A stretch of DNA of 64,000 bases from Escherichia coli (GTDB taxonomy: Bacteria > Pseudomonadota > Gammaproteobacteria > Enterobacterales > Enterobacteriaceae): NCBI RefSeq assembly GCF_003334335.1, contig NZ_QOWQ01000011.1, one strand, 5' to 3'. The notes below the pieces were generated by a model that was given only the letters and a program-made list of their open reading frames with translations, was not told the origin of the DNA and made no database searches. Every line of letters starts with the position of its first letter. Positions within the stretch are counted from its first letter, which is position 1. Positions 18,650 to 19,869 of the stretch are shown here, piece by piece. A program made the translations under genes and the position numbers.

Positions 18650-18651
18650 AA

Positions 18652-18669
18652 AAGCCGCATGTGCGGCTT
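18652..18669. terminator. Hairpin with A-run upstream; probable terminator in the rlmC/artJ convergent gap (T-run is on the minus strand)
   Basis: AAGCCGCA-TG-TGCGGCTT inverted repeat at 18652-18669, preceded by AAAAAA. Confidence 0.5.
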
Positions 18670-18699
18670 CAGATTGCTGACAAAGTGCGCGTTGTTTAT

Positions 18700-18733
18700 G
18701 CCGGATGCGGCGTAAACGCCTTATCCGGCCTAC
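18700..18733. repeat. REP element (repetitive extragenic palindrome)
   Basis: GCCGGATGCGGCGTAAACGCCTTATCCGGCCTAC matches the canonical E. coli REP consensus. Confidence 0.85.
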
Positions 18734-18768
18734 AAAAGCGTGCAAATTCAATACATTGCATGGGCCAT

Positions 18769-18797
18769 GTAGGCCTGATAAGCGTAGCGCATCAGGC
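18769..18797. repeat. REP element in inverted orientation (with the preceding REP forms a BIME)
   Basis: GTAGGCCTGATAAGCGTAGCGCATCAGGC. Confidence 0.8.
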
Positions 18798-18847
18798 AAT
18801 TTTACCTTTGTCATCAGTCTCAAGCCGCGGTTGCGGCTTTCTGAATC

Positions 18848-19579
18848 TTACTGTGGGAACCACTGGTCACTGATTTTTTGATAAGTACCGTCAGCTTTAA
18901 TTGCTGCCAGCGCGTTATTCAGTTTTTCCAGCAGGGCTTTGTTATCCGGACGTACAGCGATGCCCAGGCCGGTGCCAAAATATTGCGGATCGGTCACTTT
19001 CTCAGTAGCAACACCAAGTTGTGGATTGGTTTTCAGCCATTCGTTTACCACCGCTGTGTCACCAAATACCCCATCAATACGACCATTTTTCAGATCGATA
19101 AAGGCATTCTGATAACTGTCATAAGAGACAGTTTTCACTTCCGGGTGCTGATCCTGAATATATTTCTGGTGCGTAGTACCGTTTTCCATCCCAATACGTT
19201 TGCCTTTCAGATCGGCAAACGTTTTGTAGGTATCTTTTTTGGCAATCACGACGGCTGAGTTTTCATAGTAGGGCGTGGTAAACGATACCTGTTTGCTACG
19301 CTCCGGGGTGATATCCATACCGGAGATTACGGCGTCATATTTTCTGAATTTCAGGGACGGGATCAGGCTGTCGAACGCGTGATTAGTAAAAGTACATTCT
19401 GCCTGCATTTGTTTGCACAAGGCTTTTGCCAGATCGATATCAAAGCCGACAATCTCATTATTAGCACCTATAGATTCAAAGGGTGGATAGGTGGCTGAAA
19501 CGCCAAAATTGATTTTCTCTGCGGCAGAAGCACCGAAAGTAAAGGAAGCAAGTAAAGCGGCAAGAACTAACTTTTTCAT
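18848..19579 (-). CDS. artJ: Arginine ABC transporter periplasmic binding protein ArtJ, 243 aa
   Basis: ATG at 19577-19579 gives signal peptide MKKLVLAALLASFTFGASA; paralogous to artI downstream. Confidence 0.9.
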   Translation of the reverse strand: MKKLVLAALLASFTFGASAAEKINFGVSATYPPFESIGANNEIVGFDIDLAKALCKQMQAECTFTNHAFDSLIPSLKFRKYDAVISGMDITPERSKQVSFTTPYYENSAVVIAKKDTYKTFADLKGKRIGMENGTTHQKYIQDQHPEVKTVSYDSYQNAFIDLKNGRIDGVFGDTAVVNEWLKTNPQLGVATEKVTDPQYFGTGLGIAVRPDNKALLEKLNNALAAIKADGTYQKISDQWFPQ

Positions 19580-19648
19580 GATGGAACTCCCGTCTGTCAA
19601 TCTTATGATTTTTGGCCGTGTCTGCGGCATGGGATAACAATGCCATCA

Positions 19649-19666
19649 AGTGAATTTATATGCAAT
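19649..19666 (-). promoter_or_regulatory. Candidate ArgR operator (ARG box) in the artJ promoter
   Basis: Minus strand reads ATTGCATATAAATTCACT against the wnTGAATwwwwATTCAnw consensus, with one mismatch in the left half-site. Confidence 0.45.
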
Positions 19667-19690
19667 AAACATGATTAAATAATTTAAATG

Positions 19691-19727
19691 AAATAAAAAA
19701 GACGGACAACTTAGTGGGTTGTCCGTC
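19691..19727 (-). terminator. Intrinsic terminator of the artPIQM transcript
   Basis: 10-bp stem GACGGACAAC/GTTGTCCGTC with 7-nt loop; on the minus strand it is followed by TTTTTTATTT. Confidence 0.7.
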
Positions 19728-19752
19728 TTCATTATAAGAATTTATGCACTAT

Positions 19753-19787
19753 GTAGGCCGGATAAGGCGTCCCCGCCGCATCCGGCA
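19753..19787. repeat. REP element
   Basis: GTAGGCCGGATAAGGCGTCCCCGCCGCATCCGGCAC. Confidence 0.85.
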
Positions 19788-19800
19788 CAGGCACCGTGCT

Positions 19801-19839
19801 GATGTCTGATGCGACGCTGGCGCGTCTTATCAGACCTAC
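19801..19839. repeat. REP element in inverted orientation (BIME partner)
   Basis: GATGTCTGATGCGACGCTGGCGCGTCTTATCAGACCTAC. Confidence 0.75.
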
Positions 19840-19869
19840 AAAACCCCCCGGCGAATGTACGCAGCCACA

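What the first reader, a model, noticed from the sequence alone, without database searches (positions are those of the whole stretch)
18650..19840. artJ is bracketed by REP/BIME clusters with near-identical small hairpins
Two inverted REP pairs lie at 18700-18797 and 19753-19839. The first pair is flanked by almost identical hairpins, AAGCCGCATGTGCGGCTT (18652-18669) and AAGCCGCGGTTGCGGCTT (18822-18839). In both the artJ and artPIQM 3' regions the order is gene, then REP pair, then hairpin with T-run, suggesting REP-stabilised 3' UTRs for these arginine-transport transcripts.
Basis: partly seen in the sequence, partly recalled or inferred. Interest (0 to 1): 0.25.

Follow-up and report, generated by a model that had tools for sequence, protein, structure and literature searches.

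The report
BIME-1 insertion duplicated artJ terminator hairpin
Two ordinary, long-known E. coli repeat clusters flank the arginine-binding-protein gene artJ; the twin hairpins around one cluster are two copies of the local terminator, duplicated where a 152-bp repeat element sits, and the same footprint at many other sites hints at how these elements spread.

Summary
The window is the E. coli K-12 rlmC> <artJ <artMQIP region. Pair 1 (18700-18797) is a BIME-1 (Y REP, L linker, Z1 REP). Pair 2 (19753-19839) is a single Y-S-Z2 unit (Rfam naRNA4). Both kinds are long known.

New here: the two hairpins are not part of the repeat. They abut a sharply bounded 152-bp BIME-1 unit (18670-18821) with imperfect terminal inverted repeats, and they are direct copies of the resident rlmC/artJ terminator hairpin. 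Natural E. coli genomes carry the empty site with one hairpin in a 28-bp spacer. The same unit is flanked by duplicated, locus-specific hairpins at 12 of 25 independent loci. Predicted single-hairpin empty sites were found at three more loci.

A consequence is that each hairpin keeps its T-run only for the transcript that has crossed the repeat. Published Term-seq puts a minus-strand 3' end, most simply that of artJ, on the last T after H1, downstream of the BIME-1.

REP-mediated stabilisation is untested. It is dispensable, since many strains lack these repeats.

The parts
17522..18649 (+). rlmC CDS (23S rRNA m5U747 methyltransferase); stop codon TAA at 18647-18649
   Evidence: ORF list. MG1655 annotation b0859 at 898518-899645, which gives window = MG1655 - 880996.
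18648..18670 (-). Terminator assigned to artJ: hairpin H1 (18652-18669) plus a T6 run (18653..18648 on the minus strand). It overlaps the rlmC stop codon by 2 nt.
   Evidence: Terminator scan. Fold -12.7 kcal/mol, z -4.8. Term-seq 3' end at MG1655 899644(-) = window 18648 in M63 medium, labelled 'antisense to rlmC' in the dataset.
18652..18669 (.). H1: left copy of the duplicated target hairpin, AAGCCGC ATGT GCGGCTT
   Evidence: (D6). A single copy is present in the empty-site allele L003.
18670..18821 (+). Complete 152-bp BIME-1 unit: left end, Y REP, L linker, Z1 REP, right end
   Evidence: Every one of 5,426 E. coli genomes holds a place covering at least 80% of the unit; sampled paralogues are full-length at ~89-91% identity. 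Across 16 independent copies, mean pairwise identity is 0.82-0.98 inside the unit and 0.29-0.30 in the 40 nt outside. The unit is absent from allele L003.
18670..18685 (+). Left terminal inverted repeat of the unit, CAGATTGCTGACAAAG
   Evidence: Inverted repeat I2. Conserved across copies.
18700..18733 (+). Y-type REP (palindromic unit)
   Evidence: class definitions from PMC3333891.
18734..18768 (+). L linker of the BIME-1. It holds an IHF-core-like site at 18746-18758 with one mismatch to WATCAANNNNTTR.
   Evidence: Sequence. Rfam ES036 RF02751 at 42.2 bits, gathering score 37.6. No exact IHF core here. IHF binding was not tested.
18769..18797 (-). Z1-type REP, tail-to-tail with the Y REP
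18806..18821 (+). Right terminal inverted repeat of the unit, CTTTGTCATCAGTCTC
   Evidence: I2. Used as the search pattern that found 35 loci in Escherichia and Pseudocitrobacter.
18822..18839 (.). H2: right copy of the duplicated target hairpin, AAGCCGC GGTT GCGGCTT. It is followed on the + strand by TCTGAATCTT, the weak rlmC-side tail. It has no T-run on the minus strand.
   Evidence: No Term-seq 3' end is listed here.
18848..19579 (-). artJ CDS (periplasmic arginine-binding protein)
   Evidence: MG1655 b0860 at 899844-900575. Homologues are named ArtJ.
19692..19730 (-). Predicted intrinsic terminator of artPIQM: 13-bp stem at 19730..19698 plus a T-run
   Evidence: Terminator scan and fold. 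Conserved in all E. coli alleles examined and in Salmonella. No Term-seq 3' end is listed.
19753..19786 (-). Y-type REP in the artM 3' region; present in all E. coli alleles examined
19787..19803 (.). Short S-type linker between the head-to-head Y and Z2 REPs
   Evidence: definition from PMC3333891.
19804..19839 (+). Z2-type REP. It lies in a 66-nt block that is an insertion/deletion polymorphism: absent in L003 and L005.
   Evidence: The pair 19756-19836 matches Rfam naRNA4 RF02564 at 75.5 bits, gathering score 59.5.
19870..20538 (-). artM CDS, last gene of artPIQM
   Evidence: MG1655 b0861 at 900866-901534.

Best explanation
The rlmC/artJ spacer originally held one G+C-rich hairpin shared by the two convergent genes (AAAAAGCCGC-AGGT-GCGGCTTT).

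A 152-bp BIME-1 (Y REP, L linker, Z1 REP, bounded by imperfect 16-nt terminal inverted repeats) integrated at the base of that hairpin. The whole hairpin became directly duplicated, one copy on each side, like a target-site duplication. This step is shown by comparative evidence.

Each copy keeps only its original outer flank. H1 therefore has a T-run only on the artJ (minus) strand. H2 keeps only the weak rlmC-side tail. Both convergent transcripts must now cross the proximal hairpin and the BIME-1 before reaching a hairpin with their own T-run. For artJ this is shown by sequence plus one published Term-seq 3' end on that strand.

The enzyme and the chemistry are inferred, not shown. The simplest reading is staggered strand transfer on the two strands at either base of the palindrome, for instance when it is extruded as a cruciform or hairpin, followed by gap repair.

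The second cluster (Y-S-Z2) upstream of the artPIQM terminator is an unrelated BIME-2-type unit with its own insertion/deletion history.

Any mRNA-stabilising or IHF- or gyrase-binding role of these repeats here is possible from what is known of the families, but it is secondary and untested.
For: 1. Empty site. Allele L003 has rlmC-TAA-AAAAAGCCGCAGGTGCGGCTTTCTGAATCTTA-artJ, one hairpin in a 28-bp spacer. The K-12 allele equals that sequence plus 170 bp, the 152-bp unit and a second hairpin.
2. The unit is a discrete repeat. Every E. coli genome holds a place covering at least 80% of it, and sampled paralogues are full-length at ~90% identity. Identity falls from 0.82-0.98 to 0.29-0.30 at its ends.
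3. The hairpins are locus-specific, not part of the unit. At gloC-aspC the same unit is flanked by two copies of a different hairpin.
4. Recurrence. At 25 independent loci in Escherichia and Pseudocitrobacter, 12 flank pairs exceed the 99th percentile and 11 exceed the maximum of 600 cross-locus control pairs. The repeats abut both unit ends.
5. Short repeats at other sites. Non-hairpin sites show abutting direct repeats of 5-7 nt: ATGCTAT, AAAGCC(C), GTATG.
6. Orientation. The flanking copies match at least as well in direct as in inverted orientation at 12/12 loci, 253 against 215 identical bases in total.
7. Prediction tests. Synthetic 'flank + one hairpin + flank' queries for gloC-aspC, the rutG 3' region and the zapB 3' region were each found as single uninterrupted matches in natural genomes.
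8. Transcript end. Term-seq 3' end at window 18648(-), the last T after H1; none at H2 or inside the BIME-1.
9. Terminator scan. It calls H1 on the minus strand but not H2 on either strand.
Against: - At this locus alone the 4-nt loops cannot tell direct from inverted duplication: 15/18 identical either way.
- Polarity at this locus is unresolved. The single-hairpin allele could be ancestral, or could derive from deletion between H1 and H2. Its loop AGGT is not a simple H1/H2 chimera, which mildly favours ancestry.
- Outgroups do not help. In Salmonella and O157:H7 other genes sit between rlmC and artJ.
- A third common allele (L002 type, 1491 genomes) has H1 and a BIME-1 only 89% identical to the K-12 copy, with no H2. 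That needs a secondary deletion or an independent insertion.
- Some copies (fepA-entD, L036) show no flanking repeat.
- No transposase is tied to the unit ends. The known REP-associated enzyme belongs to a family whose characterised IS relatives make no target duplications.
- My sample was selected by an exact right-end pattern.
- The Term-seq dataset labels the 3' end 'antisense to rlmC'; assigning it to artJ is my inference.
Confidence: 0.8

Rival explanations
1. REP-stabilised 3' UTRs. The REP pairs were retained because they protect artJ and artPIQM mRNAs from 3'-5' exonucleases, and the hairpins are simply the terminators.
For: REPs lie inside the stretch that ends at the mapped minus-strand 3' end. 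Both 3' regions fold far better than shuffles, z -8.7 and -5.8. REP-dependent protection of upstream mRNA is established for other operons, and REP325 stabilises yjdM (abstract read).
Against: The transcript's 3'-terminal structure is H1, not a REP. The BIME-1 is absent in up to 1680 genomes and the Z2 REP is absent in some alleles, with the art genes intact. Genes with terminal REPs show no genome-wide half-life difference. This view does not explain why the hairpin is duplicated, nor why other loci show the same footprint.
Confidence: 0.25
2. The hairpins are integral outer modules of the BIME-1 repeat and travel with it.
For: They extend the unit's terminal inverted repeats into a 35-nt inverted repeat (I2). 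In the full-length RNA fold they pair with each other.
Against: Hairpin sequence and length differ at every locus: GCCGC.., GCCCGC.., CCTCGC.., GCACCGA... Conservation among copies stops exactly at the 152-bp ends. Empty sites retain one copy of the same hairpin at four loci. The fepA-entD copy has none.
Confidence: 0.03
3. Inverted, not direct, duplication. A BIME-1 inserted beside the single hairpin (as in the L002 allele), and the large palindrome then extended outwards by intrastrand template switching, copying H1 to the other side.
For: The L002-type allele with only H1 exists in 1491 genomes. The region is one long palindrome. At this locus direct and inverted comparisons tie at 15/18.
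Against: At 11 other loci the loops match better in direct orientation. The L002 BIME-1 is only ~89% identical to the K-12 copy, so it is not its immediate precursor. The right-hand flank TCTGAATC next to H2 is the original artJ-side flank of the empty site, as a direct duplication predicts.
Confidence: 0.07
4. Chance, or independent selection of two similar terminators for two convergent genes, with no common origin.
For: Short G+C-rich hairpins with A/T flanks are common at gene ends.
Against: Two matches against 0.03 expected in the window. Cross-locus control pairs of real terminator flanks never score above 23, while 11 of 25 same-locus pairs do. H2 lacks a usable T-run on either strand.
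Confidence: 0.02

Closest known systems
BIME-1 (also called RIB / RIP): Y and Z1 REPs around the IHF-site-bearing L linker, E. coli
   Same: One Y and one Z1 REP, tail-to-tail, with a 35-nt L linker. Single copy, ~140-150 bp. Located at the 3' ends of transcription units. Present or absent among isolates.
   Different: Nothing differs in the element itself. The descriptions I could read do not mention terminal inverted repeats with a sharp 152-bp boundary, or duplication of the target terminator hairpin. The IHF core has one mismatch in this copy.
BIME-2 unit / naRNA4 (REP325-type Y-Z2 pair)
   Same: Y and Z2 REPs head-to-head with a short linker. Rfam naRNA4 at 75.5 bits, above the gathering score. 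The Z2 block is an insertion/deletion polymorphism, as reported for BIME-2.
   Different: A single pair rather than a tandem array. It sits upstream of a separate intrinsic terminator.
[quoted passage not shown] ERIC, Correia/NEMIS)
   Same: Size ~150 bp, terminal inverted repeats, flanking direct repeats of target sequence, filled and empty alleles, folds into a long hairpin.
   Different: The duplicated target is often a whole 16-30-nt terminator hairpin rather than a fixed 2-10 bp. No cognate DDE transposase is known. A 2011 review states that REPs do not display MITE signatures.
REPIN / RAYT (TnpAREP) system
   Same: A doublet of inverted REPs that can fold as one hairpin, proposed as the replicative unit. 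Its dissemination mechanism is acknowledged as unknown.
   Different: The characterised IS200/IS605 relatives of the RAYT enzyme have no terminal inverted repeats and leave no target duplication. The reported TnpAREP cleavage sites lie within REPs and linkers, not at the 152-bp ends. No RAYT gene lies in this window.
Bidirectional intrinsic terminators between convergent genes
   Same: The empty-site hairpin has an A-run on one side and a T-rich tail on the other, and is shared by rlmC and artJ.
   Different: In the K-12 allele the two directions are split onto two hairpin copies 170 bp apart. Only the artJ direction has a canonical T-run and a mapped 3' end.

Membership tests
REP / palindromic units (Y, Z1, Z2) | Match to the ~30-36-nt imperfect palindrome consensus ending in ..GGCCTAC | tested here: met
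   Four matches at the stated coordinates with at most 2 substitutions per half. Each folds as a local hairpin.
REP / palindromic units (Y, Z1, Z2) | Strictly extragenic and highly repeated in the genome | tested here: met
   All four lie between annotated CDSs. A 1.6-kb query containing them hits a median of 40 places per genome, which is the reporting cap.
BIME-1 | One Y and one Z1 REP in opposite orientation, separated by the long L linker, as a single copy | tested here: met
   Y 18700-18733(+), 35-nt linker, Z1 18769-18797(-). Definition read in PMC3333891.
BIME-1 | L linker carries an IHF binding site and binds IHF | tested here: inconclusive
   18746-18758 has one mismatch to WATCAANNNNTTR and no exact core is found. 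The L linker matches Rfam ES036. Binding itself cannot be tested with these tools.
BIME-1 | Presence/absence polymorphism among E. coli isolates | tested here: met
   Empty allele L003. The K-12-type junction is in 1702 of 5,426 genomes, and the single-hairpin junction in at most 1680.
BIME-2 | Y and Z2 REPs separated by a short S linker | tested here: met
   19753-19786(-), 17-nt linker, 19804-19839(+). naRNA4 model at 75.5 bits.
BIME-2 | Occurs as multiple tandem copies; binds and is cleaved by DNA gyrase | tested here: not met
   Only one pair is present, so I call it a BIME-2-type unit, not an array. Gyrase binding is not testable here.
Intrinsic (Rho-independent) terminator | G+C-rich stem-loop followed by a T-run, with an RNA 3' end in the run: H1 on the minus strand | tested here: met
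   Scan. Fold -12.7 kcal/mol. Term-seq 3' end on the last T.
Intrinsic (Rho-independent) terminator | The same criteria for H2, on either strand | tested here: not met
   Not called by the scan: the tail is TCTGAATC on the + strand and GAGACTGA on the minus strand. No 3' end is listed.
Intrinsic (Rho-independent) terminator | The same criteria for the artPIQM hairpin 19730..19698 on the minus strand | tested here: inconclusive
   Strong in-silico terminator, conserved as far as Salmonella. No 3' end is listed in the one dataset I could read.
MITE-like non-autonomous transposon | Terminal inverted repeats and a sharp element boundary | tested here: met
   13/16 complementary at this locus and 12/20 in the consensus. 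Identity drops from 0.82-0.98 to 0.29-0.30 at the ends.
MITE-like non-autonomous transposon | Flanking direct duplication of target sequence, with matching empty sites | tested here: met
   12 of 25 loci lie above the 99th percentile of controls. Direct orientation is favoured. Empty sites were found at four loci. The duplication length is variable, which is atypical.
MITE-like non-autonomous transposon | A cognate transposase whose element shares the terminal repeats | not tested
   No candidate was searched for. The unit ends are too short for the similarity tools available.
REPIN/RAYT | Mobilisation by the single-copy REP-associated Y1 transposase | not testable with these tools
   No RAYT gene lies in the window. 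Papers to 2026 state that the in vivo insertion mechanism is not established.
REP mRNA stabiliser | Deleting the REP shortens the half-life of the upstream mRNA | not testable with these tools
   Only the position within the transcribed 3' region is shown. Genome-wide data show no general effect.

The most novel reading that the evidence does not exclude
BIME-1 is a 152-bp element with terminal inverted repeats. It integrates preferentially at the base of intrinsic-terminator hairpins and duplicates the entire hairpin, 16-30 nt, as its target-site duplication; at non-palindromic sites the duplication is only 4-7 nt.

If so, this would be a so-far undescribed insertion footprint. It would explain why BIME-1/RIB elements sit at the 3' ends of transcription units (site preference rather than selection for mRNA stability). 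It would explain how convergent genes acquire 'hairpin - REP pair - hairpin' 3' UTRs. It would also constrain the unknown REP/BIME dissemination mechanism to cleavage or strand transfer on both strands at the foot of an extruded hairpin or cruciform.
Probability: 0.45. Interest if true: 0.6.

Novelty: already known. Interest (0 to 1): 0.4.

Why it matters
As written, the finding is ordinary. REP/BIME elements at E. coli K-12 gene ends have been known for decades, and both clusters match existing Rfam and BIME classes.

What could matter is the origin of the twin hairpins. How REPs and BIMEs spread is still stated to be unknown (papers of 2021 and 2026). The recurrent, locus-specific duplication of whole terminator hairpins at the exact ends of a 152-bp BIME-1, with matching empty sites in natural strains, is a concrete and testable footprint of integration.

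It also gives a neutral explanation for the 3'-end location of BIME-1 and for the 'gene - REPs - terminator' layout. That layout is usually read as evidence of selection for mRNA stability.

The natural allele series at rlmC/artJ (no repeat; repeat with one hairpin; repeat with two hairpins) is a ready-made experiment for measuring what a BIME-1 does to two convergent transcripts.

Tried and rejected
- REP annotation in MG1655. The RefSeq table returned only CDS rows for this stretch, so the official REP numbering could not be cited.
- First REP pattern. A fixed-spacing IUPAC pattern found nothing because the spacing was wrong. It was replaced by a fuzzy regex.
- Outgroup polarity. Salmonella, Citrobacter and Lelliottia artJ loci were fetched, but rlmC is not adjacent to artJ there. 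O157:H7 has a PTS/sulfatase island and a different rlmC 3' end. The ancestral state of the K-12-type spacer could not be inferred.
- Allele counts. The empty-site BLAST count (1680) is inflated by two-piece joins in K-12-type genomes (row H94). It is given only as an upper bound.
- Other transcript-end datasets. TERMITe supplements contain no art or rlmC entries. Two other papers have no supplements held. The SEnd-seq paper was not found.
- Older BIME papers. Bachellier 1997 (PMC1207841), Clement 1999 (PMC94167) and Gilson 1991 (PMC333889) are not held. I cannot exclude that flanking repeats of BIME-1 were noted there.
- Hairpins as part of the repeat, chance, and independent terminators were all rejected (see the rival explanations).
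- Weak Rfam matches below gathering score (isrK, L20 leader, AbsR25 and others) were ignored as chance.
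Full report
**Identity of the region.** The 1.6 kb around the finding is 100% identical to many E. coli chromosomes and carries rlmC, artJ and artM. Against MG1655 the offset is window = genome - 880996. rlmC is at 17522-18649 (+), artJ at 18848-19579 (-) and artM at 19870-20538 (-). rlmC and artJ converge on a 198-bp spacer. artM and artJ run in the same direction, with a 290-bp spacer that also holds the artJ control region.

**The observation.**
- A fuzzy REP search finds REPs at exactly 18700-18733(+), 18769-18797(-), 19753-19786(-) and 19804-19839(+), and only one more in the 64 kb.
- The two 18-nt hairpins are at 18652-18669 and 18822-18839. The pattern occurs twice against 0.03 expected. 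The copies are 15/18 identical, with identical stems.
- On the minus strand the terminator scan calls only H1 + TTTTTT (18670..18651) and the 13-bp-stem hairpin at 19730..19698.
- The stated order of features is therefore right.
- Two details were missed. The hairpins are the tips of a 35-nt inverted repeat (I2). H2 lies between the artJ stop codon and the REPs.

**What the repeats are.**
- I used the definitions read in Ton-Hoang et al. 2012.
- Pair 1 is a BIME-1: Y and Z1 tail-to-tail around a 35-nt L linker. That linker matches Rfam ES036 above its gathering score. Its IHF-like core has one mismatch to the consensus.
- Pair 2 is one Y-S-Z2 unit of the BIME-2 type. It matches the Rfam naRNA4 model at 75.5 bits against a gathering score of 59.5.
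- Both are known kinds.

**Origin of the twin hairpins: this locus.**
- Natural E. coli genomes differ at this spacer.
- Strain CFSAN061763 (L003) has a 28-bp rlmC-artJ spacer with a single hairpin, TAAAAAAGCCGCAGGTGCGGCTTTCTGAATCTTA.
- The K-12 sequence equals this plus 170 bp: a 152-bp block (18670-18821) and a second hairpin copy.

**Origin of the twin hairpins: the 152-bp unit is itself a repeat.**
- All 5,426 complete genomes hold a place covering at least 80% of it. The sampled paralogues are full-length at ~89-91% identity, for instance in the fepA-entD and gloC-aspC spacers.
- Among 16 independent copies, mean pairwise identity is 0.82-0.98 inside the unit and 0.29-0.30 in the 40 nt outside.
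- The ends are imperfect inverted repeats: CAGATTGCTGACAAAG / CTTTGTCATCAGTCTC, 13/16 complementary at this locus and 12/20 in the consensus.

**Origin of the twin hairpins: other loci.**
- At gloC-aspC, also a convergent pair, the same unit is flanked by two copies of a different hairpin: GCCCGC-TTTTAAT-GCGGGC and GCCCGC-TTTTCA-GCGGGC.
- A scan of 100,044 species genomes for the unit's right end returned 35 loci in Escherichia and Pseudocitrobacter.
- I grouped these, together with loci fetched from E. coli genomes, into 25 independent sites and aligned the 40 nt outside each end. Twelve exceed the 99th percentile and 11 exceed the maximum of 600 cross-locus control pairs. The repeats abut both unit ends.
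- The duplicated segments are locus-specific hairpins of 16-30 nt, many with A-runs before and T-runs after. They look like intrinsic terminators.
- Sites without a palindrome show short abutting repeats: ATGCTAT, AAAGCC(C), GTATG.
- The two copies match at least as well in direct as in inverted orientation at 12/12 loci, 253 against 215 identical bases.

**Prediction tests.** I wrote the expected empty sites (left flank + one hairpin + right flank) for three further loci. Each was found as a single uninterrupted match in natural genomes:

| Locus | Result |
|---|---|
| gloC-aspC | 101 nt, in O157:H7 |
| rutG 3' region | single match |
| zapB 3' region | single match in 680 genomes |

The hairpins are therefore target sequence duplicated at BIME-1 integration, not part of the repeat.

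**Population picture at rlmC/artJ (5,426 complete genomes).**

| Allele | Genomes |
|---|---|
| H1-BIME-1-H2 junction (K-12 type) | 1702 |
| BIME-1 without H2 (L002 type; unit ~89% identical to the K-12 copy) | 1491 |
| Sulfatase gene next to artJ (O157:H7 type) | at least 420 |
| Single hairpin | at most 1680 (inflated by joined pieces) |

- Salmonella also has a sulfatase gene convergent with artJ, so outgroups do not polarise the K-12-type spacer.
- The single-hairpin loop AGGT equals the L002 H1 loop. It is not a simple chimera of the K-12 H1 (ATGT) and H2 (GGTT) loops, which mildly favours the empty site as the older state.

**Consequence for transcription.**
- Duplication leaves each hairpin with only its original outer flank.
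- H1 has TTTTTT on the artJ strand and CAGATTG on the rlmC strand.
- H2 has the weak TCTGAATCTT tail on the rlmC strand and GAGACTGA on the artJ strand.
- The layout 'gene, REP pair, hairpin with T-run' thus follows automatically from inserting the unit into a shared terminator.
- Adams et al. 2021 list, in M63 minimal medium, a 3' end at MG1655 899644(-), which is window 18648, the last T after H1. They classed it as antisense to rlmC; I assign it to artJ.
- No other 3' end is listed between 8997xx and 9007xx.
- If the assignment is right, artJ mRNA carries H2, Z1, L, Y and H1 in a ~200-nt 3' UTR. That stretch folds strongly (-92.8 kcal/mol, z -8.7). In the minimum-energy structure the two hairpin regions pair with each other.
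- The appearance in minimal medium fits ArgR derepression, but that link is inference.

**The artM side.**
- The Y REP and the terminator hairpin are conserved in all five E. coli alleles examined. The terminator is conserved in Salmonella too.
- The Z2 REP sits in a 66-nt insertion/deletion block that is absent in two alleles.
- No hairpin duplication is present there.
- I could not find a mapped 3' end for it.

**Function.**
- Stabilisation of upstream mRNA by REPs is established for some operons, but nothing here tests it.
- The transcript's terminal structure is H1.
- Natural strains lack the repeats.
- A 2026 preprint reports no genome-wide half-life difference for genes with terminal REPs.

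**Mechanism of integration (inferred).**
- The simplest reading of duplications that are either 4-7 nt or a whole palindrome is strand transfer on the two strands at either foot of the palindrome, followed by repair synthesis.
- The enzyme is unknown.
- The characterised IS relatives of the REP-associated Y1 transposase make no target duplications, and the enzyme's reported cleavage sites are inside REPs and linkers.
- Both unit tips do carry a C|T dinucleotide 2 nt from the end, which is the dinucleotide that enzyme requires. This is only a lead.

**Novelty.**
- The elements are already known.
- In the papers I could read, REP dissemination is called unknown. REPs are said to lack MITE signatures. 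BIME-1 is described only as present or absent among isolates.
- None of them mentions duplication of terminator hairpins.

Noticed in passing
L039:241-1296 (Escherichia sp. MOD1-EC7003): At least six tandem copies of [152-bp BIME-1 unit + 25-nt hairpin] with period 177. It looks as if the duplicated hairpins have served as substrates for tandem amplification.
   Followed up: partly
L002:545-725 (E. coli 600468; the same allele is in 1491 genomes): A third allele of the rlmC-artJ spacer. It has H1 plus a BIME-1 only ~89% identical to the K-12 copy, no H2, and the 8-nt TCTGAATC flank replaced by AA. It is either an independent insertion at the same hairpin or an old deletion. Its L linker has a perfect IHF core (AATCAATACATTG), unlike the K-12 copy.
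   Followed up: partly
L004/L048 (E. coli O157:H7) and L045 (Salmonella): In O157:H7, genes for PTS IIC, PTS IIB and a sulfatase lie between rlmC and artJ, and rlmC ends differently, with no AAGCCGC hairpin. Salmonella also has a sulfatase gene convergent with artJ. The K-12 rlmC-artJ adjacency is therefore not the general enterobacterial arrangement.
   Followed up: partly
L045:2310-2405 (Salmonella, downstream of artJ): A decayed BIME-1 right half (..GGCCTGATAAGCGCAGCGCC.. TTTGTCATCAGTCTC) directly followed by a hairpin AAACGCCTGCATCAACAGGCGATT. The same unit-end-plus-hairpin junction appears in another genus.
   Followed up: no
window 18734-18776 (+) and 19756-19836 (+): Rfam already holds these repeat parts as 'sRNA' families: ES036/CssrF (42.2 bits, gathering 37.6) for the BIME-1 L linker, and naRNA4/CssrE (75.5 bits, gathering 59.5) for the Y-Z2 pair.
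   Followed up: yes
window 18670-18676 and 18815-18821: Both tips of the 152-bp unit carry a C|T dinucleotide 2 nt from the end: CAGTC|TC on the top strand at the right end, CAATC|TG on the bottom strand at the left end. TnpAREP is reported to require C^T for cleavage. This is an untested lead to the enzyme.
   Followed up: no
window 56228-56263 (-): A fifth, solitary REP in the window (GCCGGATGCGACGCTACCGCGCCTTATCCGGCATAC). It was not examined further.
   Followed up: no
window 18648 (-) / MG1655 899644: The published Term-seq table classifies this 3' end as 'antisense to rlmC' rather than as the primary 3' end of artJ. The likely reason is that it lies ~200 nt beyond the artJ stop codon and overlaps the rlmC stop codon by 2 nt.
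   Followed up: yes
L024, L026, L027 (Pseudocitrobacter MAG): Copies inserted at the shoulder of a terminator hairpin rather than around it, with only 4-6 nt repeated (AAAGCC, GGCT, AGSCT). This suggests the foot of the stem is the preferred point of entry.
   Followed up: partly
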